The translations under genes were made by a program, and so were the position numbers. Shown in pieces: positions 35 through 26,946 of a stretch of DNA of 64,000 bases; within the stretch, counting starts at the first letter, position 1; each line of letters starts with the position of its first letter. The DNA is taken from the NCBI GenBank assembly GCA_025677605.1, contig GCA_025677605.1_4110.1; one strand, 5' to 3'. A model generated the notes under the pieces. It had not been told where the DNA came from. It ran no database searches and saw nothing but the letters and a program-made list of their open reading frames with translations. This DNA comes from a phage.

Positions 35-634
35 TCAATCCTCAGTGAGAATACAGTTCAGGTACGAACACAGTTCATCGTAGAAGAGTTTGTCCAGTAC
101 TGTAAGGTAACAGATACCGTTCTCTTTCATTGCAGCCTGTATCTTATCATAACCATTCACTGTGTCAAGGATTTCTTGATAAGATAATGCATCATCATTA
201 ACAGTACTACTCTGGAATGCCATTTCTTCTATGTTATCGATGGGTTCCTCATCGGAATTTAAGAAGCCTCCATTTTGATATATAATGTAATCTTCATTCC
301 ATGATTTAGTGAAACGGAGCAGGATAGGTTCATTAGCGAACATTTCGATATCACCACTTTCAATGTCGTATGAACAATATAGATTACAGTCTTCATCTAT
401 GAATTCTGCCATAAAGATTGCAGTTCGAGAACCATCATATACATAAACTCCAGTTTTGTTCATCTCAACATCAACTGCCATTCCATTTTTGAATTGCATT
501 CGAATCGTGATTTTAAGACTTTGGAGTATGTTATTTTCTGTATCTTTAACACTATACAATCCACGATATCGTAACCACAAATCTTTGATAGTACTTAAAG
601 AATTGATTAAGTCTTCATTGGGATCTTTTTTCAT
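35..634 (-). CDS. Family A paralog, unknown function
   Basis: 199-aa ORF; motif EEMAFQSSTV; 4-nt overlap with next gene. Confidence 0.7.
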   Translation of the reverse strand: MKKDPNEDLINSLSTIKDLWLRYRGLYSVKDTENNILQSLKITIRMQFKNGMAVDVEMNKTGVYVYDGSRTAIFMAEFIDEDCNLYCSYDIESGDIEMFANEPILLRFTKSWNEDYIIYQNGGFLNSDEEPIDNIEEMAFQSSTVNDDALSYQEILDTVNGYDKIQAAMKENGICYLTVLDKLFYDELCSYLNCILTED

Positions 635-1248
635 TCAGGTATTACCATATTGTTAATTAGTGTTTCTTTCTTGATGCAATCAGGCTTGATATAAATGAAC
701 ATCTTTCGTAGACTCTTCACTTTGTACCAATCATTCAGTACTGAAACCATAAGCCATAATTCTTCTGGTGTAGTGGTAACCTCTGTGATTACACCCATCT
801 GAAACAATGCACCCTTACAATCTTCAAGTGATTTCAGATCAGTCTTATACCCAGATTCAATATCCATTAGTGTTTTAGTTTTGGCATCATATGTGATGAA
901 CGATTCTTTTAGCGTTTTTCTTCCATCATTTAAGGTTAAAAACACTGGATTACCTGGACTAAACATGCACTCTTCAAATTCAGGAAATAAATCATGTGCT
1001 TCTTCATCATCGTCTTGGGTTAATTCCAGTACTAATTCATCTGTATAGATATTACAAATCCCAACGCTATATCTATTATACAGCGTTGTATATTGTGTGG
1101 GTTTTCCCTTTTTTGATAGCTTGAGTTCACTTTTCGGACCGTACTTGTCAAATAGTGTTTGTTTAGCTCTAATTAAATCTGGTGCAATGTTTAGTAAATC
1201 ACGTAGTGCTTTCTCGTACTTAACATACTCTGTTCTAATGTTAGTCAT
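631..1248 (-). CDS. Family A paralog (divergent), unknown function
   Basis: 205-aa ORF; degenerate motif KGALFQMGVI; coupled to neighbours. Confidence 0.6.
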   Translation of the reverse strand: MTNIRTEYVKYEKALRDLLNIAPDLIRAKQTLFDKYGPKSELKLSKKGKPTQYTTLYNRYSVGICNIYTDELVLELTQDDDEEAHDLFPEFEECMFSPGNPVFLTLNDGRKTLKESFITYDAKTKTLMDIESGYKTDLKSLEDCKGALFQMGVITEVTTTPEELWLMVSVLNDWYKVKSLRKMFIYIKPDCIKKETLINNMVIPE

Positions 1249-1780
1249 TGTAACCCTCTAAAAAATAATCTAATGTATCAAGTACATCACTATCAAAAAA
1301 ACAATTATTAACTACAACGATACCAGTATTATGTTCTAAATCATAACATTTATCCAGTACATTGATGCATTCATTGTACTCAATGATATCATGAAGAGTA
1401 CTGTGCTGAAAGTGTTCTTCTTCAGTGTACTCACAGTAATTAATATCAACACTGAACGATTGGTCGTTTCTTTTGCACGGATATAATTTAGTAGACTTTC
1501 GTCCAGACCATGTAATTGAATAACAACCAATCGAATTCTGTGGGATTTGTGTACCAGCATGAAGCATAATGTACAGAGCTTGCGAACTGTATGATTCAAC
1601 GTACAAACGGTTCTTATCTGCATTCATAACACAACCATCAATTGACATGCTTAGTGAATGTGACATTCTACTGGCTTTCCTGATGCCACGGCAGAAATTA
1701 ACATAACGCTGACGTAAGCTGTTAACTTTCTCAGGCCATAGCTCAAATTCTTTAGTATTTGATAATGTTGCAATGTGCAT
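1241..1780 (-). CDS. Family A paralog, unknown function
   Basis: 179-aa ORF; motif EEEHFQHSTL. Confidence 0.7.
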   Translation of the reverse strand: MHIATLSNTKEFELWPEKVNSLRQRYVNFCRGIRKASRMSHSLSMSIDGCVMNADKNRLYVESYSSQALYIMLHAGTQIPQNSIGCYSITWSGRKSTKLYPCKRNDQSFSVDINYCEYTEEEHFQHSTLHDIIEYNECINVLDKCYDLEHNTGIVVVNNCFFDSDVLDTLDYFLEGYND

Positions 1781-1782
1781 TA

Positions 1783-2385
1783 TTATTCCTTAATAACTGG
1801 TATAGCAGACCAAATTCGTTTCATTAGTTCATCTTCTAATACCACATCAGTACTGATCTTTTTGTAGTTCATTGATAATAGAAAATTACATTTCAGTTCT
1901 GATTTTAATTTTTCATAAAGATCAATGTTCATATACATTTCTTCATACGAAGGTAAAGAATGAATTAATGAATTTTGAAAATACCATTCTTCGCTGAAAT
2001 CTTTCACTTCAACACTTTTGATATTCTTAAATGAATCCTTATCAAAATAATATGAAACATCAGAACCATTATAATGTGAAAATGTTTTGAATAATTTTAT
2101 TTCATTTGTTCTACGAAGAATTCTTTCATAGGACAGAATTTTACTATCTTCTAATTCACCATGAAGTATCAGTGAAATATCAAAATCATTTGCAAGTCCA
2201 GCACCAAGGCGTTTGAATGCTAGTGTAATTCGTTGTTCACATGCCGAGATTTCAATCCTGTAAAAATCAGTTGCATACGTTAACATAGAGTATGGGAGAT
2301 GCAACTTTTCATTATTAGAAATACTTTTAGCTAACGTAATGACAGGGTTAAGCATTTTATTAAGAATAGGCATGTCAATGATCAT
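1783..2385 (-). CDS. Family A paralog, unknown function
   Basis: 200-aa ORF; motif EEWYFQNSLI. Confidence 0.7.
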   Translation of the reverse strand: MIIDMPILNKMLNPVITLAKSISNNEKLHLPYSMLTYATDFYRIEISACEQRITLAFKRLGAGLANDFDISLILHGELEDSKILSYERILRRTNEIKLFKTFSHYNGSDVSYYFDKDSFKNIKSVEVKDFSEEWYFQNSLIHSLPSYEEMYMNIDLYEKLKSELKCNFLLSMNYKKISTDVVLEDELMKRIWSAIPVIKE

Positions 2386-2386
2386 A

Positions 2387-2890
2387 TCATAATTCTCTTA
2401 GTTTTTTCAATACATAGTGTAGTACTTCATCTTCATTTACATACGATGTGTACATGAGAAATTTGCAACAAGTACTGTTAAGATAGCACATGTAGGTGAA
2501 CATTGCACTATAATTATTCACAGTACTGTTCTGAAATTCAACTTCATCAATTTCACCCAATGATACAGGTCGCATGTTGCAATCTACACCATCAATTTTT
2601 ACAACAGTAGTTCCTGGATGAAAGACTGCGGATTGTGAACCTATGGTGCTTGTATCGAAACTTGGTGCATCATAGATAGGACTATTGCTATCAAAGAGCA
2701 TGAAAATGTCATGGTCTAAACCTCTTTTCTGCTCAAATACAACTCGGATCATACCATCTTTTTGTATTTTAAGAATAATATCTGGAGCCAGTTCGAATCG
2801 ACCATATTGTTCATTGATATATTTTTCTTCAAGAATTTTATGCAATTCCACAAAGTCTTTAGTACTAAAGTGTTCCATCATATCCCTCAA
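2387..2890 (-). CDS. Family A paralog, unknown function
   Basis: 167-aa ORF; motif DEVEFQNSTV. Confidence 0.7.
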   Translation of the reverse strand: MRDMMEHFSTKDFVELHKILEEKYINEQYGRFELAPDIILKIQKDGMIRVVFEQKRGLDHDIFMLFDSNSPIYDAPSFDTSTIGSQSAVFHPGTTVVKIDGVDCNMRPVSLGEIDEVEFQNSTVNNYSAMFTYMCYLNSTCCKFLMYTSYVNEDEVLHYVLKKLREL

Positions 2891-3323
2891 CTAATTTTGT
2901 AATTTCTGCTCTTCGTACATCAATGTCATGAGCAAATGATATGGATGTGAAACCACGTTCCGCTGCAATGGCTCTCAACTGTAGGAGAAGTAATAACGGA
3001 TATATCACTTCATCAGAATACAAAGTACTTAATTGAAATATGGTTGCTTCATCAATCTCAGTACTTAAATCTATACTTTTAATATCAATGATTAACTGTG
3101 TATTGAAATACCATACATTGTCATTGACATAATCTATAGTAGTATTATCCATTACACTATAATCAATGTATCTTTCATTTGACCATAATGTCATCATATC
3201 ATCGCCGTCCGATGGATAGCTTACGTCAAACCATGAACCTGATTTTCGAGCTTTACCATTATCCAGTTCATTGAGGCAGTACTGGATTAACTTTTTCAGT
3301 AATTCGTAATCGTCTTTATTCAT
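2865..3323 (-). CDS. Family A paralog, unknown function
   Basis: 152-aa ORF; motif EATIFQLSTL. Confidence 0.7.
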   Translation of the reverse strand: MNKDDYELLKKLIQYCLNELDNGKARKSGSWFDVSYPSDGDDMMTLWSNERYIDYSVMDNTTIDYVNDNVWYFNTQLIIDIKSIDLSTEIDEATIFQLSTLYSDEVIYPLLLLLQLRAIAAERGFTSISFAHDIDVRRAEITKLVEGYDGTL

Positions 3324-3801
3324 TGCATTTCCAGAATATAGGATGTTTGTTAAGTGTTTGAAATATCATATCAAATGTAAATTTGTAATAAGAATAAACA
3401 CCGAAATTAATTGATATAGAATTTAAATTAGTTTCATGCACCATAGCACTATGTATCAGAACTGCATTTCTATGAAACTCATTATCAAGGCTCAATTCAG
3501 CCATAAAATCATCTAAAGTTCTGTCGCCGTTCTTTTTCTCGTATATGATTTCACCACTTGGTTCAATGAATACTGAACTTTCCCTTGATAGGATCATGAT
3601 TCGTTTCTCAATGACATTTTGAGATTCTTGACAGTTGAGTTCACAAAATGTCCATGAGCCACAGAACACAGCGATAATGTCGTTGTTTTTCACGAAGTTA
3701 AAGGGAATGCCATCAATCATTATCTGTACTTCGTGCACAAATTTATGAGAATACTTCTCAAGAATTTTACAAAATTTAATAACGTCTGCTGGATTTAACA
3801 T
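3316..3801 (-). CDS. Family A-like paralog (motif degenerate)
   Basis: 161-aa ORF; DDFMAELSLD at the motif position; same size and context. Confidence 0.55.
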   Translation of the reverse strand: MLNPADVIKFCKILEKYSHKFVHEVQIMIDGIPFNFVKNNDIIAVFCGSWTFCELNCQESQNVIEKRIMILSRESSVFIEPSGEIIYEKKNGDRTLDDFMAELSLDNEFHRNAVLIHSAMVHETNLNSISINFGVYSYYKFTFDMIFQTLNKHPIFWKCNE

Positions 3802-4355
3802 TGGATTGCCTTAATATGTTCAATCATTGCCTTGGAGTTAGTACTCATGTACTCAAATATATCATCATTCATGAGTTCTGTCAAGTTCAATTCAACCGTA
3901 CATCCATCTGGTAAGTTCTTCTGACAGAACGGAGCCAGTACTGCACCGTACAGTACATACGGATCATCAATAATTAAACTCTTCTGGAAGCAATCACAAT
4001 CCATATCTTCTTCATTATCGAAGTAAGTACTGATATCTATTGCAGTACTATCTTTACACATCAACTCTACATCACCTTTTTTAATTACTACACGCTTTGT
4101 CTTGGTATTGCGTAATCGGGTGTATTCTTTTATGTGTCGTTGTTGTGTATTGATTTCAATGATATCTTTGTGGTTGTACGTTATTGTGAAGTGCATATCA
4201 TTATTCAAATCACCACTCAGAAAAAAATTAAGATCTCTTAGTACAGTGTGATTGACTTTAATGTATTCACCTTCACGAATTAAACTCAGTGCAGCTACAC
4301 AATCTTCAATAAACTTCTCAAGGAACTTCCCTCTATAGTAAAGACTATATTTCAT
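3795..4355 (-). CDS. Family A paralog, unknown function
   Basis: 186-aa ORF; motif DCDCFQKSLI. Confidence 0.7.
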   Translation of the reverse strand: MKYSLYYRGKFLEKFIEDCVAALSLIREGEYIKVNHTVLRDLNFFLSGDLNNDMHFTITYNHKDIIEINTQQRHIKEYTRLRNTKTKRVVIKKGDVELMCKDSTAIDISTYFDNEEDMDCDCFQKSLIIDDPYVLYGAVLAPFCQKNLPDGCTVELNLTELMNDDIFEYMSTNSKAMIEHIKAIQC

Positions 4356-4930
4356 GAGAACTCCCCAGTATTGTTGATAAGACTGTCCAGACCTTCATGA
4401 ATTCTTTTAAATTCACTACGTTTAAAACGATGAACAATTTGTTGTAATGGACAGTATTTGTCTTTCTTATCCAGTTCATGATTGACGATTGTACTGAAAA
4501 GTAATAAATCCAATTCGTTAGTACTGTACATAGTACTTAACTGGAATAGTTCTTCTTCTATAGTACTACTGTTAAGATTAATCTTTGGAATTTTTTTACC
4601 TGAAATAACAATCCCTGCAAATTCACTTGTCCCTGGAACTTCAGCATTTCCTCCAATAATATAATCGTAGTTAATGTACCCATCGTTATTGGTTAAATCT
4701 TCTTTATTGTACTTAATTATCAGAAAGACACGTAGATCATTCATCGAAACTACTGCATGATCATACATACCTTCCTGGTCTTTAGTAATCGCCAAACGCA
4801 TATATGGGAGATTAAATGTCTTTTTAGTTTTACATAAATCACTATTAAGAATAGCATTCACTTTCAAAACCATCTTAGTGTAATATTGATACTCTTCGGA
4901 CATGTAATTATAAAGATTTGAGAAAGGCAT
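4352..4930 (-). CDS. Family A paralog, unknown function
   Basis: 192-aa ORF; motif EEELFQLSTM. Confidence 0.7.
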   Translation of the reverse strand: MPFSNLYNYMSEEYQYYTKMVLKVNAILNSDLCKTKKTFNLPYMRLAITKDQEGMYDHAVVSMNDLRVFLIIKYNKEDLTNNDGYINYDYIIGGNAEVPGTSEFAGIVISGKKIPKINLNSSTIEEELFQLSTMYSTNELDLLLFSTIVNHELDKKDKYCPLQQIVHRFKRSEFKRIHEGLDSLINNTGEFS

Positions 4931-5480
4931 TTAATTCCTCCAATAATTCTTCTTGTGTTTCAGTACTTTCATTGTATAAATTATTGAAAGCGGAACACTC
5001 CCCACTACCAAGTTGCATTGATAGTTGATATACAAAATCAGCTTTAGCTATCATATCATAACCAGGAAGCAACGACAACTGGAAAAGATATGCTTCTCGC
5101 TCTTCTGGATTTTGTAGCTCAGGTGCAATATGAAGATATTCTTCATCATCATAATAATCATCGTACAAATTTCTGACGATTAATTCGTTAGTTTCTTTGA
5201 GTTTATTCACAGTAAGACTACAATCAGAAACTGAACCCAAAAATTTACTCTCTCTGCCTGATGCCACATAAGAAGCATCAACTGACCATATATTTTTGGT
5301 TTTATGTTGAATGCAGTGTTGTATTTGGATATTAGCATAACGATACAAAGTACTGCAATCAAAAACTAATCGGTACATTGGATTGTTGAAGTAATGAAAA
5401 ATATTCTCTGTTCTTTTTTGTTCATCTAACTTATGAGTAAGTTCTTCTAGTACTTTAAAAATATCAATTAGTGTTTTCAT
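4908..5480 (-). CDS. Family A paralog, unknown function
   Basis: 190-aa ORF; motif EAYLFQLSLL. Confidence 0.7.
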   Translation of the reverse strand: MKTLIDIFKVLEELTHKLDEQKRTENIFHYFNNPMYRLVFDCSTLYRYANIQIQHCIQHKTKNIWSVDASYVASGRESKFLGSVSDCSLTVNKLKETNELIVRNLYDDYYDDEEYLHIAPELQNPEEREAYLFQLSLLPGYDMIAKADFVYQLSMQLGSGECSAFNNLYNESTETQEELLEELNAFLKSL

Positions 5481-6018
5481 GTTCTTTTCTCGTTTGTGCG
5501 TAGTTTTTCAAGTCCTTGAGTAATACTACTAATTGATCATCAGTGAGTAATGATGCTGTTGCACTATATGACATATAATAATTATTGAGATTGAAATCAA
5601 ATTTATAGTTACGTGCTAAAGCTTCAATCGTAAGTGCATCAGTGATTAATTTATCGTGAGTTACAGAACTCTGGAAATTTTGTTCTTCTAAATTCTCAGT
5701 ACTGAACAACGCAATAGGATCATATGATGGTTCTTTGTAATCCACTGCCTCTTTCATTCGAGGATTACGTGAAATAAAAGCCCAAGAACTGTCATATGAA
5801 AAATCAACAACACAGTCTTCCTCATCACCTTCATGTGGGTAAACGCACAGAATAGTTTTATTTTCTTCTGTGAACATCTGCTGCGTTGCAATACCCTCTC
5901 CTGTGTATTCAATTTCATAATCGAAACCGATTCTTAATTTACGTCCCTGTGAATTACACGTTTCAAGAAGTTTTCCCAGTTCGTTGTAAATTTGTAAGAT
6001 TAATAGGTAATTGTCCAT
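5464..6018 (-). CDS. Family A paralog, unknown function
   Basis: Track ORF 5464..6075 trimmed to MDNYLL (GAGGA SD). The removed extension overlaps the terminator/promoter at 6047..6085. Motif EEQNFQSSVT. Confidence 0.65.
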   Translation of the reverse strand: MDNYLLILQIYNELGKLLETCNSQGRKLRIGFDYEIEYTGEGIATQQMFTEENKTILCVYPHEGDEEDCVVDFSYDSSWAFISRNPRMKEAVDYKEPSYDPIALFSTENLEEQNFQSSVTHDKLITDALTIEALARNYKFDFNLNNYYMSYSATASLLTDDQLVVLLKDLKNYAQTRKEHENTN

Positions 6019-6046
6019 ATGATATCCTCGGTTAAATAATATTAAA

Positions 6047-6085
6047 ATAATAGCAAAGAAAAAAGCCAGAGTCAATACCCTGGCT
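6047..6085 (-). promoter_or_regulatory. Terminator hairpin with embedded sigma70-type promoter
   Basis: Stem AGCCAG 6064..6069 / CTGGCT 6080..6085, followed on the minus strand by a U-tract. -35 TTGACT 6070..6075 lies in the loop; 17-bp spacer; -10 TATTAT 6047..6052. Confidence 0.6.
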
Positions 6086-6091
6086 TTAAAA

Positions 6092-19882: not shown

Positions 19883-19938
19883 CTGAAAAACACAATATAA
19901 AATTTTATATTAAACATATACCTTAACATGTTTTTCAG
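19883..19938. repeat. Inverted repeat with nested perfect AT palindrome
   Basis: CTGAAAAACA 19883..19892 pairs with TGTTTTTCAG 19929..19938. The nested 18-bp palindrome AATATAAAATTTTATATT is at 19894..19911. Confidence 0.7.
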
Positions 19939-20000
19939 CGAAAATTTTTTTGACCCCCCAAAACGCCCCCAAAAACAAGCCTATATTTATCATTTTAAAA

Positions 20001-20567: not shown

Positions 20568-21103
20568 TACTCCCCCTTAATCTCTTTGAGATCTTTTACT
20601 AACCTATCGTACCACGTTAAAGCTAAAAAGAAATTCGTTTTCACATTAGCACGTAATACATTATATACTTGCTGCACCTGTAAAACATAAGGATCTTGTA
20701 CTAAGGACTCCTGAAAATATTCTTCAGGACTCAGGATGTTAGGATTCAAGGTTGCAATATCAACGTGCTTTGTTAAACCAAAAAAGGTTTCTTCCTCTCT
20801 CTTGCTCATATCCAAATAACGAATCCAATTCACTGGAGCGAACTCTTCAGATGCTGATGTAGCCGATGTAATAGCATTGAACAAAAGACAATACTCTAAC
20901 TGCATCTTCTCACCTACAGCGTGCATTACCGTATCTCTCCTGTAATACACAATAGAGGGATACTTTTCAATATCGCTCTTAGGCTCAAGCCATCCTTCCT
21001 TGTGCTTAGGATAGATGTGGTCAAAATCCCCAGCCTCAAACGCCTGTACGATTTTTACTAAATTGTCAGCGAACTCGTACTCAAAATGTTTGTGCTGGAT
21101 CAT
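20567..21103 (-). CDS. Family A paralog, unknown function
   Basis: 178 aa; motif SPEEYFQESLV. Confidence 0.7.
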   Translation of the reverse strand: MIQHKHFEYEFADNLVKIVQAFEAGDFDHIYPKHKEGWLEPKSDIEKYPSIVYYRRDTVMHAVGEKMQLEYCLLFNAITSATSASEEFAPVNWIRYLDMSKREEETFFGLTKHVDIATLNPNILSPEEYFQESLVQDPYVLQVQQVYNVLRANVKTNFFLALTWYDRLVKDLKEIKGE

Positions 21104-21133
21104 CTAAATCACTCCCGTCTTTGTTGTATTGTG

Positions 21134-21168
21134 TGTTATTGCATGTTATTGCATGTTATTGCGTATTA
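21134..21168. repeat. Tandem decamer repeat (TGTTATTGCA x3 plus a partial copy)
   Basis: Copies at 21134, 21144 and 21154, in the 62-bp gap between two family A genes. Confidence 0.7.
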
Positions 21169-21804
21169 TAACACAATCTCTTTTAACTTCAAAATGAAAT
21201 CTTCATATACTTTTATCTGAAAATGCGGACTCTGTGCACTGAAACTAAACCCAGGTTCAATCAATTTCTTGTACTCATTTGCATATTTGCACAACTTCAG
21301 GATTTCGGTAGGGTCCACCATATCCTTCTGTACTAAGGACATTTGAAAAAGCACTTCCTCTACACCCTCGTACTCTTGACCTGCAATGTAACATATGTCA
21401 TCGTCTAACGATAATGATATGAACGTCTTTGTACTTATTACATTACCATCTTTTGAAACACCATAATCTGCAACTGAATCCACAAAGGAATCCGGCTTAG
21501 ATGAACCTGCTATGTCGCAAATGTACTTGTCAATGTATGTGATGTTATTGTTGTTATCGAATATACCAAATGCTAATGACGTGTCAAATACTTCCCTGAA
21601 ACCAATTCTGTCACTACCGATAACTAAAACTAATTTACCACAGGATGCACTGTATCTGGATGCGGAATCAAATGGAATCTCCAATTTTGAATTCTCAGGG
21701 AAAATAGCATTGAACTTCTTTAGCATTTCAAACATATAAGGAACATGAGGCTCCATGAACTTCATCACCTCATACGGTGAAGCATTTCTGGGAAAATTAT
21801 GCAT
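21166..21804 (-). CDS. Family A paralog, unknown function
   Basis: 212 aa; motif VEEVLFQMSLV. Confidence 0.7.
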   Translation of the reverse strand: MHNFPRNASPYEVMKFMEPHVPYMFEMLKKFNAIFPENSKLEIPFDSASRYSASCGKLVLVIGSDRIGFREVFDTSLAFGIFDNNNNITYIDKYICDIAGSSKPDSFVDSVADYGVSKDGNVISTKTFISLSLDDDICYIAGQEYEGVEEVLFQMSLVQKDMVDPTEILKLCKYANEYKKLIEPGFSFSAQSPHFQIKVYEDFILKLKEIVL

Positions 21805-22330
21805 ATGTACTTACCCTTAAATTTTCGAAATCCCATACATCACTGATTGTACCATTGTGCCTGTAATCATAATATTGTACTAATACATTATACAATAACT
21901 TCAACGATACAAATTCATGATTCCACGGGGCTTTATTCTCATGAACACATTTAGAGATATAAGGTATCATATATAAAGCAACCATCTCTAATGGTTCATG
22001 TACACATTGCTTTTGAAAATATTCTTCTTCTTGCATACAATGCTCAGGAATAATTAGATCACCATGTTTACCGAAGACATATGAACCTACTGTGTATTTT
22101 TTCACATCGCAAGCGAACCATATTGTACTATCCGAAACAAATGGAATGATACCATTATTGTTTGCAATGTACATCATATGGTAAGAGCTATTTGACTTGT
22201 TAAATACCTCTATACTTTTAATATTACTACAAATCGCGTATTCAATACAATCAATAATCTTATCTTTAAATACACCAATTTCATTGAATGTCATTGCTTT
22301 CTGTACTTGCGATGTTTGCGATGTTTGCAT
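21797..22330 (-). CDS. Family A paralog (divergent)
   Basis: Track ORF 21797..22366 trimmed to MQTSQTSQ (AAGGAG SD; the extension overlaps the -10). Motif QEEEYFQKQCV. Confidence 0.6.
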   Translation of the reverse strand: MQTSQTSQVQKAMTFNEIGVFKDKIIDCIEYAICSNIKSIEVFNKSNSSYHMMYIANNNGIIPFVSDSTIWFACDVKKYTVGSYVFGKHGDLIIPEHCMQEEEYFQKQCVHEPLEMVALYMIPYISKCVHENKAPWNHEFVSLKLLYNVLVQYYDYRHNGTISDVWDFENLRVSTYA

Positions 22331-22356
22331 GGGGTTCTCCTTAAAAATGTTCAGGT

Positions 22357-22385
22357 ATATTAGCACCGATTCGGTACTGTGTCAA
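22357..22385 (-). promoter_or_regulatory. sigma70-type promoter
   Basis: -35 TTGACA 22380..22385; 17 bp; -10 TAATAT 22357..22362. Confidence 0.6.
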
Positions 22386-22394: not shown

Positions 22395-22424
22395 GAAAAA
22401 AGCCCATATCTTACGATACAGGCT
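22395..22424 (-). terminator. Probable rho-independent terminator
   Basis: Imperfect hairpin AGCCCATAT / ATACAGGCT followed by U6 on the minus strand; overlaps the stop of 22411..22908. Confidence 0.45.
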
Positions 22425-22908
22425 CGGTTGGGTAAAAGGACTCATATACATTTTTCATTTGCTGGAAATAAAAATATACATGATTCTTAAGCACACCATT
22501 CTCATAAAGCATCTTGTATATTGCGTAGAAAAAGATATCAATTTCTTCATGTATTGTACTGTACTGGAACCACAACTCCGGTGTCAAGGGTTCTGGACTG
22601 TATTTGATTTCCAACAAAGCATCATCCATTGGCTTATCACGTCCTGGATACATATACCAAAGGTCATCTCTTTCCAGACGAAGATCATCTTCATCAGGAT
22701 ATACATTGTCAGGAGCAAAATTTAAAAAACTAAAAAGCACTTTACCTGAATTTGATTCTTCTAACTGATTGTTAATATAATCATATTTGTGATTTATTGA
22801 AGCATATCCTTTTCCTTCATATGCTTTCATTATATTGTATACACCTTCAATGTACTTAACGTACTGTACAGCACTCTCTAAACTAAATTCCACTTTACAT
22901 TTTTGCAT
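22411..22908 (-). CDS. Family A paralog, unknown function
   Basis: 165 aa; motif TPELWFQYSTI. Confidence 0.7.
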   Translation of the reverse strand: MQKCKVEFSLESAVQYVKYIEGVYNIMKAYEGKGYASINHKYDYINNQLEESNSGKVLFSFLNFAPDNVYPDEDDLRLERDDLWYMYPGRDKPMDDALLEIKYSPEPLTPELWFQYSTIHEEIDIFFYAIYKMLYENGVLKNHVYFYFQQMKNVYESFYPTEPVS

Positions 22909-23246
22909 AATAAAATAATCTCAACTAAAGCAAGAACTGTATTGAATTCCACTATACTTGTAATTCCCTGAAGGTACATGTACTTTGCTATTACATATTT
23001 CTGTACTAAATTATCATTCTTCTTGAATTCATCAAACGCATCATTACAACGTGTCATGTATTCTGTACTCAAAAATATCTTATGCATCTCTAATGCACTC
23101 TGATAATATGCATACAACTCACGAATATCTATACTACGTAAATCACGTTGTTCGTACTTGTGATACGGAATAGCTTCAATTTCAATATTATAAAACCATT
23201 CTGTTAACTTATTAATATCAAATGTATTATTGTACTTCGAGGTCAT
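22878..23246 (-). CDS. Hypothetical protein
   Basis: Track ORF 22878..23279 trimmed to MTSKYNN (AGGAA SD); no family motif. Confidence 0.5.
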   Translation of the reverse strand: MTSKYNNTFDINKLTEWFYNIEIEAIPYHKYEQRDLRSIDIRELYAYYQSALEMHKIFLSTEYMTRCNDAFDEFKKNDNLVQKYVIAKYMYLQGITSIVEFNTVLALVEIILLCKNVKWNLV

Positions 23247-23535
23247 AATATTTCCTTTCCCATTCGGATACATGGGCATTAAAATTCATAACAGCTTTCT
23301 GTATCTTTTTTAATAATAACACATCATATCCACCTGTGTCAATCACTAATTGCTGTTGAAACAATTCTTCGTCGGATAATGTATTGAAATCTACAAAATA
23401 ATCTGTGACTTCGTTATCATTTAAATGTGCCATGTACCAACCTGAACTACATGAATAAATCAAATTCCAACCGTCTTCATCGCCTTCTAATTCAACATAA
23501 ATCATATCTTTTGTATAAAGCATTCTATACTTCAT
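23227..23535 (-). CDS. Family A paralog (short form)
   Basis: 102 aa; motif SDEELFQQQLV. Confidence 0.65.
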   Translation of the reverse strand: MKYRMLYTKDMIYVELEGDEDGWNLIYSCSSGWYMAHLNDNEVTDYFVDFNTLSDEELFQQQLVIDTGGYDVLLLKKIQKAVMNFNAHVSEWERKYYDLEVQ

Positions 23536-24040
23536 AACTATATCCTTGCATCAAAATATCATAAACTGCTTGAATGTCAGGAACTTTTATATAAAATTTA
23601 AAACCCTTAATTAAAGGATTCGCGTACAATGAACTGAATAACTTTAGATAATGCATTTGACGAGGACTATATAATAACGATTTCTGAAATAATTCAGCAC
23701 TACAATCTGTACTAATATCAATTAAATCAATTCGTTCTTCTACTTCATCATCTTGTTTCAAATCATAAAAGAAATAATCGTTTGTGTTTACCCACAAATA
23801 CCCTTCTTTATTTTCGTATACAACAGGAGATGTTTGTACCGGATTGGCTTGGGTAAATGCTGCAATACAAACGTTAACATTCCCTGCATTATTTGCATTG
23901 TGAAACATAAACGATAATTTACCATGCCTATCTTCTATGCGTAATTCATCTATATCAATGTACTTATGTATAGGATGATTATTTTTGAGCATAAGCATTA
24001 TTGTACTAATCTTGTGCGTTAATAATTCAATTTCATTCAT
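23525..24040 (-). CDS. Family A paralog, unknown function
   Basis: 171 aa; motif CSAELFQKSLL. Confidence 0.7.
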   Translation of the reverse strand: MNEIELLTHKISTIMLMLKNNHPIHKYIDIDELRIEDRHGKLSFMFHNANNAGNVNVCIAAFTQANPVQTSPVVYENKEGYLWVNTNDYFFYDLKQDDEVEERIDLIDISTDCSAELFQKSLLYSPRQMHYLKLFSSLYANPLIKGFKFYIKVPDIQAVYDILMQGYSYEV

Positions 24041-24046: not shown

Positions 24047-24430
24047 TTACCTATAGCATTTGAGCACTGTAACCAATCCCTCTGCATTCTTGAAATGCAT
24101 TAAAGACAATGAACTATCAACGTACTGCAATGATATAATTACATCCTGTTCTGTGTGTTTGAATAAAAATTCCTGTACCGAATTCGTACCATAATACATG
24201 TACTTCGTTGCTTCAATCTGCAAATAAGGCACTTCTGTATTGTGTAAAAAGATATTGATTATTTCATTATTCTGTAATCTGCAATCAAATTTGTATGTTT
24301 CATATAACGGTACATCCGATGATGCCTGTACTGCCTGTACTGCCTGTGCTGCATGAGCGGTGTTTATAAATGATAAAAACACAAATGTTAAAATGAATAT
24401 GATTTTATTGAACATGTTTTGTTTCCTCAA
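24047..24430 (-). CDS. Secreted/periplasmic small protein (signal peptide)
   Basis: 127 aa. N-terminus MRKQNMFNKIIFILTFVFLSFINTAHA, then AQAVQAVQA encoded by a 9-bp tandem repeat at 24324..24350. Confidence 0.6.
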   Translation of the reverse strand: MRKQNMFNKIIFILTFVFLSFINTAHAAQAVQAVQASSDVPLYETYKFDCRLQNNEIINIFLHNTEVPYLQIEATKYMYYGTNSVQEFLFKHTEQDVIISLQYVDSSLSLMHFKNAEGLVTVLKCYR

Positions 24431-24624: not shown

Positions 24625-25013
24625 TTAATAGGGTATTCCGTTTCATTCACTACATACGACATAATCCATCCGTAATGGATAGGATGATATTTGTCTGAAT
24701 CAGGAATAAAATATAAAGCTGTACTGGGATTATAACTGAAGAAATCCCTCTCGTCAAATGTTAATCTGGCTAACTTAATTTTCCTTGGAATTGCATGAGG
24801 ACGAACTGCATTCTTTACACAGAATATACCATCTTTGTATTTTGGTTCGATAACACCCAATGCACTCTGGATTAACTCCTGAAAGACTAAATTGATTTGT
24901 GCAAATGAATCCTTGTTGTTATGCATTTCGTGCCATAAATCTCGTCTTGCATTTAACATCATTATTACTGGTCTAAGATCCTGTACTATTGTTAGATTCT
25001 GCATTGTATTCAT
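24612..25013 (-). CDS. Hypothetical protein
   Basis: 133-aa ORF, co-oriented. Confidence 0.55.
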   Translation of the reverse strand: MNTMQNLTIVQDLRPVIMMLNARRDLWHEMHNNKDSFAQINLVFQELIQSALGVIEPKYKDGIFCVKNAVRPHAIPRKIKLARLTFDERDFFSYNPSTALYFIPDSDKYHPIHYGWIMSYVVNETEYPIKWER

Positions 25014-25230
25014 TTATCTCATTCTGTAACTTAACAACCAAAATTTGCGTATGAATTTTTCGCTCAAGGTGCTTGATAAATTTCTGTACCATTTCTTCTT
25101 GTACTGATGTACCAAGATAAAATAACATATTAAATTCTGATAATCGCAGAGCAAAATCTTCATCGCCCCCCTGTAAACAAAAATCCCTGTACTTCGATGC
25201 GTACAAATGATGGTTTACATTTTTGTACAT
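24973..25230 (-). CDS. Family B-like small protein
   Basis: 85 aa; FYLGTSVQEEMVQKFIKHL. Confidence 0.6.
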   Translation of the reverse strand: MYKNVNHHLYASKYRDFCLQGGDEDFALRLSEFNMLFYLGTSVQEEMVQKFIKHLERKIHTQILVVKLQNEINEYNAESNNSTGS

Positions 25231-25433
25231 TTAGACTCCTTTGGTGTGCATACTATCTCTGTTCGTAAAGCCCTTATGTATGCATCAACGAATTGTGGCT
25301 GTGCTCTCGTTCCTAGATAAAATAATAAATCGAACTCTGCCATTTTAACATTAAAAGGATCTGAATCTACATTTCGAATAAACTGTCTGTACTTCAATTC
25401 ATATCCGTTAGGCATCTTCTTGTATACTATCAT
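25215..25433 (-). CDS. Family B-like small protein
   Basis: 72 aa; FYLGTRAQPQFVDAYIRAL. Confidence 0.6.
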   Translation of the reverse strand: MIVYKKMPNGYELKYRQFIRNVDSDPFNVKMAEFDLLFYLGTRAQPQFVDAYIRALRTEIVCTPKESKCTKM

Positions 25434-25743
25434 ATTCTATACAATCACCTCTTTTAATCGAATCCCAAACTTCTTTCATCCTCTTCTGTAAACTGCACAT
25501 AATATCTATATCAAACATATAAGGGTCATGAATTAGACTGTACTGAAATAATTCATCTTCCTGCATAAGAGAAAGATCCTGAAGCAACTCGTACTTACCT
25601 AAACTCCTGGGACTCAAATAAGCAAAATATTCTTTACCGTCCTCAAAAACATAATGTACTTCATGATTCATGTACTTCTTGTAATTCTCATGCGTATAAG
25701 CAAATATACAACCGGAATTAATTCGGTGAATGTTGAATTTCAT
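25408..25743 (-). CDS. Family A paralog (short form)
   Basis: 111 aa; motif QEDELFQYSLI. Confidence 0.7.
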   Translation of the reverse strand: MKFNIHRINSGCIFAYTHENYKKYMNHEVHYVFEDGKEYFAYLSPRSLGKYELLQDLSLMQEDELFQYSLIHDPYMFDIDIMCSLQKRMKEVWDSIKRGDCIEYDSIQEDA

Positions 25744-25752: not shown

Positions 25753-26079
25753 TTATACGTAAATTGGATGAATATTTTGAAGGAAATGCTTAGAAATATT
25801 CATACATGATATCATCTGCCTTTGTACTTCCTTCATCTCTTTGTATGTCAACCCAAAAGAATCATCGTATACTAACATGTACTGAAACTCTTCTTCTTCA
25901 GAGATATCAACTAGATTCGGTACTGCTATCGTATTTTCATATGATTTGATACCTTCTACCCAATAGAAACAATTATCAACTTTATTGTACTCAAATATCT
26001 TAACCCCAGGCCCACCCTGTACATTGGTCAACGCAATGAAACATGTATTCGCTCTTTTTATACAATTGATCTTACGCAT
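25753..26079 (-). CDS. Family A paralog (short form)
   Basis: Track ORF 25753..26109 trimmed to MRKINCIK (avoids overlap with the upstream gene; GGAG upstream). Motif SEEEEFQYMLV. Confidence 0.55.
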   Translation of the reverse strand: MRKINCIKRANTCFIALTNVQGGPGVKIFEYNKVDNCFYWVEGIKSYENTIAVPNLVDISEEEEFQYMLVYDDSFGLTYKEMKEVQRQMISCMNISKHFLQNIHPIYV

Positions 26080-26086
26080 TATCGCA

Positions 26087-26332
26087 TTATCTCCATCTCT
26101 CTCCGTCATCGCAAGAGTACTGGTACGTTGTCGTTAGGGTAGGAATCATGTTCGTAATCGGCATATTATTCACAATAACCGTTACGGGCATCATAACCGT
26201 CTCTTTTCTACTCTGTCCTGTCTTTGTGCAATTCATCTTGTGCATTTCATCTGAATCCAGATACGCTAATACAAACGGTGCAATCCCAAGAACAATACAC
26301 AAGACGATAAGGAAATTTAAAAATTTTAACAT
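26087..26332 (-). CDS. Small membrane-anchored protein
   Basis: 81 aa; N-terminal hydrophobic helix LKFLNFLIVLCIVLGIAPFVLAY. Confidence 0.55.
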   Translation of the reverse strand: MLKFLNFLIVLCIVLGIAPFVLAYLDSDEMHKMNCTKTGQSRKETVMMPVTVIVNNMPITNMIPTLTTTYQYSCDDGERWR

Positions 26333-26361
26333 AATCTGTACCCTATGATTAACGTTAGTGT

Positions 26362-26390
26362 ACTATAGCACTACAATAGAGTACTGTCAA
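26362..26390 (-). promoter_or_regulatory. sigma70-type promoter
   Basis: -35 TTGACA 26385..26390 (inside the 3' end of 26371..26601); 17 bp; -10 TATAGT 26362..26367. Confidence 0.55.
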
Positions 26391-26601
26391 CTGCTTTGTT
26401 CTCTATTATACTCATTAAACCCCAAATTAGATAACGAACACTATCAGCTTGATAGTTAGTACCTACTGTGCATTTTAAAATTAACTCATCTTTCAGTACT
26501 GCACGTTCTTCTTGGGATATAGGAAGAGAATTTATTTGTTTTATTTGTGGTTGTAAAGTATTAATAAGCTTGCAGTACTCTTCGAATGATAATCTTTTCA
26601 T
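26371..26601 (-). CDS. Family B small protein (LGTNYQ family)
   Basis: 76 aa; CTVGTNYQADSV. Confidence 0.65.
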   Translation of the reverse strand: MKRLSFEEYCKLINTLQPQIKQINSLPISQEERAVLKDELILKCTVGTNYQADSVRYLIWGLMSIIENKAVDSTLL

Positions 26602-26604
26602 GGT

Positions 26605-26946
26605 TCAGTACTCAATAATGTGTTCTTCATAAGCACTATTAGGCTCCTGTTTAGTTTCTTTTATTAGTACTATCATCTTATGTGCCAATGGCATAGGAAA
26701 CTCTAAATCCCATACTAATGATTCTTGAAAGTATTCTTCTTCAGATAAAGTACTTAAATCTTCAATGTCAATGTGTTCGTACATGTTATATTTGTAATCA
26801 GCAAAAGATATATAAAAACCTCTTGTAGAATCGTAAGTAATCGTGAATGGCTTACCTTTGTAGTCCATTACATCTTTACATAGACTGCATTTGATATATG
26901 TACTTGCAAATGATTTATAAACCTTAAGTTGAATATTAGTTTTCAT
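26605..26946 (-). CDS. Family A paralog (short form)
   Basis: 113 aa; motif SEEEYFQESLV. Confidence 0.7.
   Translation of the reverse strand: MKTNIQLKVYKSFASTYIKCSLCKDVMDYKGKPFTITYDSTRGFYISFADYKYNMYEHIDIEDLSTLSEEEYFQESLVWDLEFPMPLAHKMIVLIKETKQEPNSAYEEHIIEY

What the first reader, a model, noticed from the sequence alone, without database searches (positions are those of the whole stretch)
35..26946. About 45 tandem paralogs of one uncharacterised protein family with an acidic-x-[FYLW]-F-Q-x-S-[TL] motif
**What the sequence shows.** Nearly every minus-strand gene from 35 to 26,946, plus an outlier at 55116..55787, belongs to one highly diverged family of 102-216 aa. The members share four parts:
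- an N-terminal helix (..A..I..IH.F..);
- a variable beta-rich middle;
- an acidic run ending in F-Q-x-S-[T/L]-[V/I/L], e.g. EEELFQLSTM, DENYFQNSLI, SEEYYFQQSTV, EEVLFQMSLV;
- about 35-40 residues later, a [FV]Y[FILV]D[LY] motif (FYLDL, FYIDL, FYFDL, FYVDL, FYMDY).

Short members (about 110 aa) lack the N-terminal helix region. I recognise no known domain. An expansion this large, about 40% of the window and split into several sigma70-promoter units, is very unusual for a phage.

**Inference.** The invariant motif resembles cleavage sites of 3C/NIa-type proteases (TEV ENLYFQ/S, HRV-3C LEVLFQ/GP), although an extra residue separates Q and S here. Three readings seem possible:
1. a processing or recognition site that releases a roughly 50-aa C-terminal helical module;
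2. a structural hinge;
3. a decoy, immunity-like or anti-defence repertoire diversified by duplication.

Only the family and motif are observed. The function is speculation.
Basis: partly seen in the sequence, partly recalled or inferred. Interest (0 to 1): 0.85.

Follow-up and report, generated by a model that had tools for sequence, protein, structure and literature searches.

The report
Fast-evolving FQ-motif gene family in jumbo phage
A giant E. coli phage of the RaK2/121Q group carries 42 or more back-to-back copies of a small, acidic protein of unknown function; the copies share almost nothing except an EE-x-x-F-Q-x-S helix, diverge far faster than their neighbours, and are most likely early host-interaction proteins rather than protease substrates.

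Summary
The window comes from an Asteriusvirus jumbo phage; bases 1-20000 are 98.8% identical to Escherichia phage A4. In 35..26946, 42 of the 51 minus-strand ORFs of at least 80 aa carry [ST]-E-E-x-[YLF]-F-Q-x-S-[TL]-[VIL]-[YH]-[DN] 40-87 residues from the C terminus. FQ.S[TL] occurs in 34/42 members, 0/146 other ORFs, and 0.16 times by chance.

Only this motif is general. The FY.D[LY] motif is in 8/42 and the N-helix signature in 3/42. The 55116..55787 outlier is unproven.

There is no Pfam, NCBIfam or PDB sequence relative, and PHROGs splits the family over 30 unknown-function families. An exhaustive search of 1.84 billion proteins gave 176 clusters; every cluster traced was from a RaK2-like phage. 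121Q has at least 42 copies and a Klebsiella RaK2-like phage at least 31.

Collinear orthologues in 121Q are 35% identical (median), against 86% for neighbouring genes, yet selection is purifying (dN/dS 0.19-0.44). The genes follow sigma70-like promoters just inside the terminal repeat and their phAPEC6 homologues are absent from virions.

Best reading: an early, diversified host-interaction repertoire. Its function is untested.

The parts
35..634 (-). family member, 199 aa, motif IEEMAFQSSTVND (194-232)
   Evidence: HMM E 1.7e-14 (seed); motif; A4_390 orthologue
631..1248 (-). family member, 205 aa, divergent motif CKGALFQMGVITE
   Evidence: HMM E 5e-13
1241..1780 (-). family member, 179 aa, TEEEHFQHSTLHD
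   Evidence: HMM E 1.8e-27; phrog_29816
1783..2385 (-). family member, 200 aa, SEEWYFQNSLIHS
2387..2890 (-). family member, 167 aa (A4 annotation starts at 2878), IDEVEFQNSTVNN
2865..3323 (-). family member, 152 aa, DEATIFQLSTLYS
3316..3801 (-). possible degenerate member, 161 aa, LDNEFHRNAVLIHS (Q replaced by H)
   Evidence: position in the array only; no HMM or hhalign support
3795..4355 (-). family member, 186 aa, MDCDCFQKSLIID
4352..4930 (-). family member, 192 aa, IEEELFQLSTMYS
4908..5480 (-). family member, 190 aa, REAYLFQLSLLPG
5464..6075 (-). family member, 203 aa as longest ORF (A4 annotation starts at 6018), LEEQNFQSSVTHD
7501..8049 (-). possible degenerate member, 182 aa, [12 protein letters not shown] (Q replaced by M)
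   Evidence: position in the array and a collinear 121Q orthologue; no profile support
8132..8683 (-). family member, 183 aa, DDGVLFQYSTLYD
8680..9312 (-). family member, 210 aa, SEESFFQNSLIYE
   Evidence: phrog_22855
9317..9931 (-). family member, 204 aa, LDETLFQYSLIHN
9906..10412 (-). family member, 168 aa, TDENYFQNSLIYN (the only basic member, pI 9.3)
10422..10892 (-). family member, 156 aa, NEEMYFQNSLLYT, plus FYIDL
10889..11371 (-). family member, 160 aa (A4 annotation starts at 11359), TEETHFQLSLIYT, plus FYLDL
11359..11790 (-). family member, 143 aa, PPDELFQYSLVCP
11790..12128 (-). short family member, 112 aa, SEEELFQMSTAFE
12112..12615 (-). family member, 167 aa, SEEDYFQFSTTMN, plus FYFDL
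12615..13112 (-). family member, 165 aa, DECEYFQYCTIYS, plus FYFDL
13169..13705 (-). family member, 178 aa, TEELFFQMSTVDD, plus FYVDL
13708..14046 (-). short family member, 112 aa, SEEELFQESLVWE; the protein modelled in the second AlphaFold run
14046..14459 (-). short family member, 137 aa as longest ORF (A4 annotation starts at 14414), SEEEFFQESTVWD
14411..15061 (-). family member, 216 aa as longest ORF (A4 annotation starts at 14989), divergent motif STDVAFQQDLIMN
14958..15506 (-). family member, 182 aa, NEESVFQLSTVHN
16137..16706 (-). family member, 189 aa as longest ORF (A4 annotation starts at 16670), FEEQMFQLSCTDD
16743..17189 (-). family member, 148 aa, NEEGYFQLSTVLN, plus VYIDL
17195..17650 (-). 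family member, 151 aa, SEEYYFQQSTVYT; one of three recent paralogues
17650..18093 (-). family member, 147 aa, TEEYYFQQSLIFN; one of three recent paralogues
18095..18577 (-). family member, 160 aa, SEEYYFQQSTVYN; the protein modelled in the first AlphaFold run
18749..19075 (-). short family member, 108 aa, YESFIFQESLVWD
19431..19787 (-). short family member, 118 aa, DEATLFQESLVFD
20001..20567 (-). family member, 188 aa, SPDVVFQYSTLHD
20567..21103 (-). family member, 178 aa, SPEEYFQESLVQD; its A4 orthologue is annotated 'DNA ligase', with no Pfam support
21166..21804 (-). family member, 212 aa, VEEVLFQMSLVQK
21797..22366 (-). family member, 189 aa (GTG start, uncertain), QEEEYFQKQCVHE
22411..22908 (-). 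family member, 165 aa, TPELWFQYSTIHE
23227..23535 (-). short family member, 102 aa, SDEELFQQQLVID
23525..24040 (-). family member, 171 aa, CSAELFQKSLLYS
25408..25743 (-). short family member, 111 aa, QEDELFQYSLIHD
25753..26109 (-). short family member, 118 aa, SEEEEFQYMLVYD
26605..26946 (-). short family member, 113 aa, SEEEYFQESLVWD
55116..55787 (-). possible outlying member, 223 aa, QEEDLFMYSTVID (Q replaced by M), 47 aa from the C terminus
   Evidence: hmmsearch E 0.065; hhalign aligns the motif in register over 22 columns, E 0.002, probability 14%; phrog_29152
13144..13172 (-). sigma70-like promoter, 12/12 match with an extended -10 TG, in the gap upstream of gene 12615..13112
   Evidence: consensus match only
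16705..16732 (-). sigma70-like promoter, 11/12, upstream of gene 16137..16670
8081..8109 (-). sigma70-like promoter, 11/12, just downstream of the terminator-like hairpin at 8122-8143
26362..26390 (-). sigma70-like promoter, 11/12, in the gap 26332-26605
22357..22385 (-). sigma70-like promoter, 10/12 with TG, next to the terminator-like hairpin at 22400-22425
21165..21192 (-). sigma70-like promoter, 10/12 with TG, in the gap 21103-21166
6062..6087 (-). terminator-like hairpin (11 bp stem plus T run) after the MCP-domain gene

Best explanation
The genes are a lineage-specific multigene family of RaK2-like jumbo phages (Asteriusvirus and Alcyoneusvirus). They encode small, mostly acidic, non-virion alpha+beta proteins.

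**Transcription (inferred).** The genes lie in several units just inside the left terminal repeat. They follow host sigma70-type promoters, so they are probably expressed early.

**Fold (predicted).**
- Each protein has a variable beta-meander sheet. Long members add an N-terminal helix and a variable insert.
- A conserved C-terminal part of helix, helix and strand follows the sheet.
- The [ST]-E-E-x-[YF]-F-Q-x-S-[TL]-[VIL]-[YH]-[DN] motif is the first of those helices. I read it as an N-cap box, then acidic first turns, then the F anchor on the hydrophobic face, then Q and S beside it.
- I therefore treat the motif as the keystone of the scaffold and not as a protease site.

**Function (inferred, not shown).** The paralogues are a repertoire of binding proteins. 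Their variable sheet and N-terminal surfaces engage different host factors, such as defence or take-over targets. The repertoire is maintained by birth-and-death duplication and by exchange between phages.
For: **Family and motif are real.**

**Restricted to these phages.**
- An exhaustive profile search of 1.84 billion representatives gave only 176 clusters. All are 65-212 aa, none is fused to another domain, and all carry the motif.
- The ten clusters I traced come from about 350-kb phage contigs or named Asteriusvirus phages.
- tblastn with a Klebsiella-phage member hits only Klebsiella and Escherichia jumbo phages.

**Fold.**
- The two AlphaFold models have pTM 0.73 and 0.78.
- The motif is helical (H107-113 and H60-69) in blocks with mean pLDDT 93-96. 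A helix and a strand follow it.
- BFVD models of 121Q, RaK2 and SP27 homologues superpose with TM up to 0.76 at 15-32% identity.
- No conserved catalytic-type residue set is present.

**The genes are functional.**
- dN/dS is 0.19 against phage A4 over 38 genes.
- dN/dS is 0.44 against 121Q for the alignable pairs, compared with 0.19 for neighbouring genes.

**Fast turnover.**
- Collinear reciprocal-best orthologues in 121Q have median identity 35% (n=32). The figure is 66% for the adjacent LGTNYQ family and 86% for 38 other neighbouring genes.
- Only 6-10% of the array DNA aligns to other Asteriusviruses, against 58-77% for window 39-64 kb.
- Phage A4 has two extra copies despite 98.8% identity.

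**Early, non-structural context.**
- All ten promoter matches of 11-12/12 are on the coding strand, and several lie in intergenic gaps.
- The array lies just inside the position of the 21.5-kb direct terminal repeat annotated in vB_Ec-M-J.
- In the relative PA5oct, the terminal-repeat genes are early and the host RNA polymerase is used.
- No phAPEC6 product between gp348 and gp548 is in the virion proteome, and the family members gp426c and gp442c fall in that range.

**Charge.** Median pI is 4.9 and mean net charge is -9.7.
Against: - No target, interaction, phenotype or expression datum exists for any member. The host-interaction function is inferred from evolutionary pattern and context alone.
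- Strict invariance of the polar Q, and 90% S and about 80% E-E, exceeds what core packing usually demands. Hydrophobic positions of the next helix are conserved only as a class. The motif may therefore be a functional site and not just a keystone.
- The invariance is partly an ascertainment effect, because the profile is dominated by the motif.
- I could not inspect model coordinates, so burial of F and Q is not shown.
- High dS in diverged orthologues (up to 1-2) means much of the divergence may reflect old alleles swapped by recombination and not fast adaptive change.
- Promoter calls are consensus matches, and their total count is not above the shuffled expectation.
Confidence: 0.4

Rival explanations
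1. Adaptor family. The invariant EE-x-x-F-Q-x-S helix is a docking surface for one shared partner, either a host hub or a phage protein. The variable part selects different substrates. This would be analogous to F-box/PRANC or other viral adaptor families.
For: - F and Q are identical in 206/206 sequences, S in 90% and E-E in about 80%, although overall column identity is 8-11%.
- Conservation is at protein level, across both serine codon families.
- The variable N-terminal and sheet half contrasts with the constant C-terminal half.
- Many paralogues are kept under purifying selection.
Against: - No candidate partner is identified.
- The motif is predicted as an integral helix, and its hydrophobic residues would face the sheet (inference).
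- The invariance is partly circular, because the profile is driven by the motif.
- Positional candidates with Q replaced by H or M exist.
Confidence: 0.22
2. Processing site. A Gln-specific 3C/NIa-like or other protease cuts after F-Q and releases a C-terminal peptide of about 50 aa.
For: - The consensus E-E-x-Y-F-Q matches the TEV determinants E-x-x-Y-x-Q at P6, P3 and P1 (TEV specificity is from my own knowledge).
- The position is constant, 40-87 aa from the C terminus.
- One ORF in the terminal-repeat region (46349..46846) has a sub-threshold hit to the papain-fold Tox-PL-2 domain, E 0.004.
Against: - The motif is helical in the highest-confidence part of both models, not in a linker.
- The C-terminal segment contributes a strand, presumably to the N-terminal sheet, so it is not an independent module.
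- The P1' position (+2) is mostly Y, Q, N or L; G or S is uncommon there.
- tblastn with TEV NIa-Pro finds nothing in 50,697 phage records.
- Only the T4-type prohead protease is reported for RaK2 and phAPEC6. That enzyme cuts after Glu (my own knowledge).
- The Tox-PL-2 hit is below threshold, and that ORF has no PDB relative.
Confidence: 0.04
3. MAM33/p32-like acidic decoy. The proteins are remote structural relatives of the mitochondrial acidic matrix protein family. They act as acidic chaperones or nucleic-acid mimics that sequester basic DNA- or RNA-binding host proteins, including restriction or defence nucleases.
For: - Long members add an N-terminal helix before the sheet, as p32 does (p32 topology is from my own knowledge).
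- The proteins are acidic.
Against: - hhalign against human p32 gives probability 0.1%.
- PF02330 never appears in Pfam scans of the 42 members.
- A pI near 4.9 is far less extreme than the DNA mimics Ocr or ArdA (my own knowledge).
- The ArdA Pfam hit was a single one at E 0.074.
Confidence: 0.12
4. Genome filler. The array is the residue of tandem duplications that merely fill an enlarged capsid, following the ratchet model of Hua et al. 2017. The genes have little or no present function.
For: [quoted passage not shown]
- Paralogues and orthologues are extremely divergent.
Against: - Reading frames are intact, with dN/dS 0.19-0.44.
- A protein-level motif is preserved across two phage genera with free synonymous change.
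- Gene order is collinear with 121Q.
- There are no long DNA repeats, so the duplications are old yet have been retained.
Confidence: 0.05

Closest known systems
Terminal multigene families of large eukaryotic DNA viruses (ASFV MGF110/360/505; poxvirus host-range families and 'genomic accordions')
   Same: - Dozens of tandem, same-strand paralogues sit next to a genome terminus or terminal repeat.
- The paralogues are strongly divergent.
- Copy number differs between close strains.
- The genes are not in the virion, and a host-interaction role is suspected.
- The accordion idea for large phages is discussed in PMC13359090.
   Different: - This is a bacteriophage, and the protein fold and motif are unrelated.
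- No recent amplification is seen: there are no long DNA repeats, so the duplications are old.
- No host-range or immune-evasion phenotype has been shown.
Other phage lineage-specific expansions: the roughly 35-copy zinc-ribbon family of Bacillus phage G (Iyer et al. 2021, PMC7824862) and the '>30 very similar genes' array of 121Q (Hua et al. 2017, PMC5646251)
   Same: They are also tandem arrays of small proteins of unknown function in jumbo phages and have been read as duplication products.
   Different: - The phage G family is a zinc ribbon, so possibly DNA-binding.
- The 121Q remark probably refers to the much more similar 70-aa LGTNYQ array that lies next to this family. I did not find the FQ-motif family described as one family in any paper searched.
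MAM33 / p32 / gC1qBP family (PF02330)
   Same: - Both are acidic alpha+beta proteins.
- Both have an antiparallel beta-meander sheet backed by C-terminal helices. p32 has an N-terminal helix, as do the long members here.
   Different: - There is no sequence or profile similarity.
- This family has fewer strands and an extra C-terminal strand.
- The trimeric doughnut of p32 could not be tested.
TEV NIa / picornaviral 3C protease recognition sites
   Same: The consensus E-E-x-Y-F-Q has the same P6, P3, P2 and P1 residues as ENLYFQ.
   Different: - Here the sequence lies in a predicted helix of a folded domain.
- P1' is rarely G or S.
- No such protease was detected in phages.
SPO1 host-takeover module and T5 pre-early region (from my own knowledge)
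   Same: Both are clusters of small early genes with strong host-type promoters in or beside the terminal redundancy. This matches the position and promoter pattern found here.
   Different: - Those modules are sets of unrelated genes, not one expanded family.
- Early expression is not demonstrated here.

Membership tests
3C/NIa-type protease substrate (cleavage-site reading) | Recognition sequence E-x-x-Y-x-Q followed by G or S | tested here: inconclusive
   P6 is E in 82%, P3 is Y in 46% and P1 is Q in 100%. P1' (+2) is mostly Y, Q, N or L, and the conserved S is at +3.
3C/NIa-type protease substrate (cleavage-site reading) | Site lies in an exposed, extended linker between separable modules | tested here: not met
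   The motif is helical, in blocks with mean pLDDT 93-96, in both models. The C-terminal segment supplies a beta-strand, and the only other strands are N-terminal. These are predictions only.
3C/NIa-type protease substrate (cleavage-site reading) | Cognate Gln-specific protease encoded by the phage or host | tested here: not met
   tblastn with TEV NIa-Pro against 50,697 phage records found no match at E up to 1. The literature names only the T4-type prohead protease. Sensitivity is low, and a full-genome profile scan was not done.
3C/NIa-type protease substrate (cleavage-site reading) | Cleaved products observed | not testable with these tools
   This needs N-terminomics or a western blot.
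MAM33/p32/gC1qBP (PF02330) | Significant sequence or profile match to the family | tested here: not met
   There was no PF02330 hit among the 42 members at E up to 1. hhalign of A1 and A2 against human p32 gave probability 0.1%. The PDB profile searches did not list p32 or Mam33.
MAM33/p32/gC1qBP (PF02330) | Fold: N-terminal helix, antiparallel beta-sheet, two C-terminal helices | tested here: inconclusive
MAM33/p32/gC1qBP (PF02330) | Homotrimeric doughnut with an acidic face | not testable with these tools
   Only monomer prediction was available.
ArdA antirestriction protein (PF07275) | Match to the Pfam model above the gathering score (27 bits) | tested here: not met
   One member of 42 gave 14.1 bits, E 0.074.
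Viral tandem multigene family (birth-and-death or accordion kind) | Many tandem same-strand paralogues descended from one ancestor | tested here: met
   There are 42 members in the window, at least 42 in 121Q and at least 31 in a RaK2-like Klebsiella phage.
Viral tandem multigene family (birth-and-death or accordion kind) | Copy-number change and accelerated divergence compared with flanking genes | tested here: met
   A4 has extra copies. Median orthologue identity is 35% against 86% for neighbours. Omega is 0.44 against 0.19.
Viral tandem multigene family (birth-and-death or accordion kind) | Demonstrated role in host range or immune evasion | not testable with these tools
   This needs deletion and complementation experiments.
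Any single PHROG or Pfam family | All members fall in one curated family | tested here: not met
   The members are spread over 30 PHROGs, all of unknown function. There is no Pfam or NCBIfam family.

The most novel reading that the evidence does not exclude
The invariant EE-x-x-F-Q-x-S helix is a functional module shared by all paralogues, not merely a fold keystone. It could be a docking or recognition element for a single host or phage factor, or a site of modification or processing at the Gln. On this reading the array would be a phage-encoded library of 40 or more adaptors or decoys, each coupling a different host target to one common effector. That would be a bacteriophage counterpart of eukaryotic-virus F-box/PRANC or ASFV MGF-type families, built on a previously undescribed fold.
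Probability: 0.2. Interest if true: 0.85.

Novelty: new variant of a known kind. Interest (0 to 1): 0.6.

Why it matters
- **Scale.** RaK2-like jumbo phages of E. coli and Klebsiella are being developed as therapeutic phages. The 42 members alone occupy about 21 kb, roughly 6% of a ~355-kb genome, and nothing is known about the family.
- **Database gap.** Databases currently scatter the family over 30 unrelated 'unknown function' groups. Recognising it as one family gives a single handle, the EE-x-x-F-Q-x-S helix, for mutagenesis, pull-downs and structural work.
- **Evolutionary signal.** Orthologues are 35% identical where neighbouring genes are 86% identical, yet selection is purifying. This is the signature expected of genes in direct conflict with the host. 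The array is therefore a good place to look for new counter-defence or host-takeover activities and for determinants of host range.
- **Possible tool.** If the scaffold-plus-variable-surface reading is right, the family is also a natural library of binders on one small fold.
- **Practical caution (inference).** Several members carry near-perfect TEV-like sequences, for example EEYYFQ. They could be cut if expressed with TEV-cleavable tags and partly unfolded.

Tried and rejected
- **ArdA lead.** A single Pfam hit (E 0.074) plus a remembered 'ELMFQDYEG' in ColIb-P9 ArdA. It did not recur in any other of the 42 members, so I dropped it.
- **p32/MAM33 at sequence level.** hhalign and Pfam were negative. 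Only a weak fold resemblance remains.
- **The search for homologous proteins with alignments A1 and A3.** Both returned only near relatives of the first sequence, 19 and 18 hits. This added nothing beyond the exhaustive search.
- **DNA-pattern scan of IMG/VR for EE.YFQ.ST.** It gave 42 loci, but by my own estimate about 20 are expected by chance. The loci were not readable by the script tool. It served only to locate the RaK2 array.
- **AFDB50 fold search.** The library was not available. Fold novelty is therefore judged against the PDB and BFVD only.
- **PDB sequence and profile searches.** Only chance hits sharing 'E.(V/I)FQ', in the acetylcholine receptor and an acyl carrier protein.
- **Papain-fold lead for 46349..46846.** Tox-PL-2 at E 0.004, below threshold, with no PDB relative. 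Not pursued.
- **TEV NIa-Pro tblastn.** No match.
- **Degenerate candidates 3316..3801 and 7501..8049.** No profile support.
- **Rfam scan and tRNA scan of the window.** Nothing found.
- **Literature.** Five full-text searches and nine papers gave no description of this family. The only mentions are general remarks on paralogues in RaK2 and 121Q.

Full report
**Source of the window.** Bases 1-20000 are 98.8% identical to Escherichia phage A4 (ON286972, 355.5 kb, Asteriusvirus). The other matches are RaK2-like jumbo coliphages such as 121Q, SP27 and CMSTMSU. They cover only 6-10% of this stretch, at 84-91% identity. By contrast, window 39-64 kb aligns over 58-77% at about 89% identity to many Asteriusviruses. 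The array is therefore much more divergent than its surroundings.

**Checking the observation.**
- Of the 51 minus-strand ORFs of at least 80 aa in 35..26946, 42 carry F-Q-x-[S..]-[TLV..] preceded by acidic residues, 40-87 residues from the C terminus.
- In a MAFFT alignment of the 42, only the initiator Met, F and Q are invariant, and mean column identity is 11%.
- FQ.S[TL] occurs in 34/42 members and in 0/146 other ORFs of the window. Shuffling predicts 0.155 occurrences.
- The conservation is at protein level. F uses TTT or TTC (31/11), Q uses CAG or CAA (27/15), and S uses both AGY (21) and TCN (15) codons.
- The only DNA repeats are short stretches encoding the motif, plus one trio of recent paralogues at 17195-18577.
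- An HMM built from the window detects non-seed members:
  - four more in A4, of which two lie beyond the window's left edge and two are extra copies;
  - 42 in 121Q;
  - 31 in a Klebsiella RaK2-like phage.

  All of these carry the motif.
- Over 206 distinct sequences the consensus is [ST](65%)-E(82%)-E(80%)-x-[Y46/L/H/F]-F-Q-x-S(90%)-[T48/L45]-[V/I/L]-[Y48/H19]-[D/N/S]. An amphipathic helix follows.

**Limits of the observation.**
- Outside the motif the family is barely recognisable. Pairwise phmmer links 23 members and leaves 19 as singletons. Leave-one-out profiles without the motif detect 1/42 N-terminal halves and 6/42 C-terminal halves.
- The strict N-helix signature is in 3/42.
- Non-members inside the interval include:
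  - an MCP-signalling-domain protein at 6092..7504 (PF00015, E 6e-37);
  - a signal-peptide protein at 24047..24430;
  - members of a second small family.
- The outlier 55116..55787 has EEDLFMYSTVID. It gets only marginal support: hmmsearch E 0.065, and hhalign over 22 columns with probability 14%.
- 3316..3801 and 7501..8049 get no support.

**Relation to known families.**
- Pfam gave nothing recurrent among the 42 members. The single ArdA hit had E 0.074.
- NCBIfam gave nothing.
- PDB sequence and profile searches gave only chance hits.
- PHROGs scatters the 42 over 30 families, all of unknown function.
- An exhaustive hmmsearch of 1.84 billion representative proteins found 176 clusters. They are 65-212 aa, with no fusions, and all carry the motif.
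- The clusters I traced come from about 350-kb phage contigs, including contigs labelled 'E. coli', or from named Asteriusviruses.
- tblastn with a Klebsiella-phage member finds only Klebsiella and Escherichia jumbo phages.

**Structure.**
- Long member 18095..18577: pLDDT 75.8, pTM 0.73. It has an N-terminal helix at 3-21, a low-confidence insert at 28-57, four strands at 63-95, helices at 97-101, 107-113 (EEYYFQQ) and 119-133, a strand at 139-142 (FYFD) and a helix at 143-156.
- Short member 13708..14046: pLDDT 83.2, pTM 0.78. It has five meander strands at 3-52, a helix at 60-69 (EEELFQESLV), a helix at 78-94 and a strand at 103-110.
- In both models the motif lies in the blocks with the highest confidence (93-96).
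- The [STDN]-E-E start has the composition of a helix N-cap box. By i/i+3/i+4 periodicity, F groups with positions -1, +3 and +4. This is my inference, because coordinates could not be inspected.
- hhalign against human p32 gives probability 0.1% (p32 sequence verified).
- Foldseek against BFVD returns only uncharacterised proteins of 121Q, RaK2, SP27, GAP32 and Serratia phage BF.
- The AlphaFold-database library was unavailable.
- Overall this is a small alpha+beta domain with at most a weak p32-like resemblance.

**Evolution.**
- Against A4, 38 family genes give dN/dS 0.19, which indicates functional genes.
- For 33/42 members the best match anywhere is a collinear gene of 121Q and not a paralogue. 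The duplications therefore predate the split of these two phages.
- Reciprocal-best collinear orthologues have these median identities:

| Gene class | n | Median identity |
|---|---|---|
| FQ-motif family | 32 | 35% |
| Adjacent LGTNYQ family | 18 | 66% |
| Other neighbouring genes | 38 | 86% |

- For pairs that can still be aligned at codon level, pooled omega is 0.44 for the family and 0.19 for neighbours. dS is also high for the more diverged pairs. Old alleles exchanged by recombination may contribute as much as fast change.

**Context.**
- All ten promoter matches of 11-12/12 to the sigma70 consensus are on the coding strand. Several sit in the few intergenic gaps (13172, 16732, 8109, 26390), and some lie beside terminator-like hairpins. 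The total number of matches is not above the shuffled expectation.
- In vB_Ec-M-J the direct terminal repeat is 1..21525. It aligns to roughly window 32-54 kb, and GC skew flips at about 54 kb. The LGTNYQ array and then the FQ array therefore lie just inside the left terminal repeat and are transcribed inward.
- In the related phage PA5oct the terminal-repeat genes are early and transcription depends on host RNA polymerase (PMC7318152).
- The phAPEC6 virion proteome of 62 proteins contains nothing between gp348 and gp548. The family members gp426c and gp442c fall in that range.
- The proteins are acidic, with median pI 4.9 and mean charge -9.7.

**Interpretation.**
- *Shown:* a real, large, phage-lineage-specific family; a protein-level motif; purifying selection; exceptional divergence; homologues absent from the phAPEC6 virion.
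- *Predicted:* the fold, and the helical state of the motif.
- *Inferred:* early expression, and a role as diversified host-interaction or counter-defence binders with the motif helix as scaffold keystone.
- The cleavage-site reading is disfavoured by the models, by the P1' composition, and by the lack of any detectable NIa-like protease or any named protease other than the prohead protease.
- I cannot exclude that the motif is a shared docking or modification site. The identity-level conservation of Q, S and E-E argues for some function beyond packing.

**Literature.**
- RaK2: 'nearly 10% of gene products are paralogues' (PMC3622015).
[quoted passage not shown] This more likely describes the LGTNYQ array.
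- phAPEC6 repeats the 121Q remark.
- Reviews discuss accordion-like expansion in large phages in general terms.
- None of the papers I searched defines this family or its motif.

Noticed in passing
window 26949..31315 (-), plus 15716..16140, 24973..25433 and 26371..26601: There is a second tandem family of about 25 genes, 65-96 aa each, sharing an [LFM]-[LM]-G-T-[ND]-x-Q (LGTNYQ) motif. The copies are partly interleaved with the FQ array. They match phrog_4148 (unknown function) and have no Pfam hit. Orthologues in 121Q are 66% identical (median). This is probably the '>30 very similar genes' array that Hua et al. 2017 noted in 121Q.
   Followed up: partly
window 6092..7504 (-): A 470-aa protein with N-terminal hydrophobic helices and a methyl-accepting chemotaxis signalling domain (PF00015, E 6e-37) is embedded in the array. 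It has its own terminator-like hairpin at 6062-6087. A phage-encoded MCP-like protein is unusual.
   Followed up: partly
window 57674..63456 (+): Five consecutive 310-408 aa Kelch/RCC1-like beta-propeller paralogues lie here. In other Asteriusviruses their counterparts are annotated as DNA or chromosome condensation proteins, and proteins so named (gp003-gp010, gp549, gp551) are in the phAPEC6 virion proteome.
   Followed up: partly
window about 32000-54000: This stretch has higher GC (0.37-0.40 against 0.32-0.34) and is filled with very short ORFs. It aligns with the 21.5-kb direct terminal repeat annotated in vB_Ec-M-J. GC skew changes sign near 54 kb, which suggests the physical genome end lies there.
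   Followed up: partly
window 20567..21103 (-): The orthologue in phage A4 (A4_348) is annotated 'DNA ligase'. The protein is an ordinary FQ-family member with no Pfam ligase domain, so the annotation looks wrong.
   Followed up: yes
window 46349..46846 (-): A 165-aa Ala/Glu/Lys-rich protein gives a sub-threshold hit to the papain-fold toxin domain Tox-PL-2 (E 0.004, 17.9 bits against a cut-off of 25). It has a single Cys in the sequence GNCIAVV. It has no PDB relative and matches phrog_27871, of unknown function.
   Followed up: partly
window 36855..37439 (-): A 194-aa protein gives weak protein-kinase domain hits (PF00069 and PF07714, E 1e-3, below threshold). A homologous region in phage Turkey3 is annotated as serine/threonine kinase PknA.
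   Followed up: no
window 31382..32203 (-) and 51535..52044 (-): The first ORF is a 273-aa match to an endonuclease PHROG (phrog_681, E 4e-14). The second is a 169-aa protein with a NUMOD4 domain. Both are likely homing-endonuclease-type genes flanking the terminal-repeat region.
   Followed up: no
window 24047..24430 (-): A 127-aa protein inside the array has a signal-peptide-like N terminus (MRKQNMFNKIIFILTFVFLSFINTAHA). It is unrelated to the family.
   Followed up: no
database records, not the window: Many family homologues are deposited as 'Escherichia coli' proteins on contigs of 343-358 kb. Asteriusvirus genomes therefore seem to be co-assembled often with E. coli isolates, through contamination or a carrier state.
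   Followed up: no
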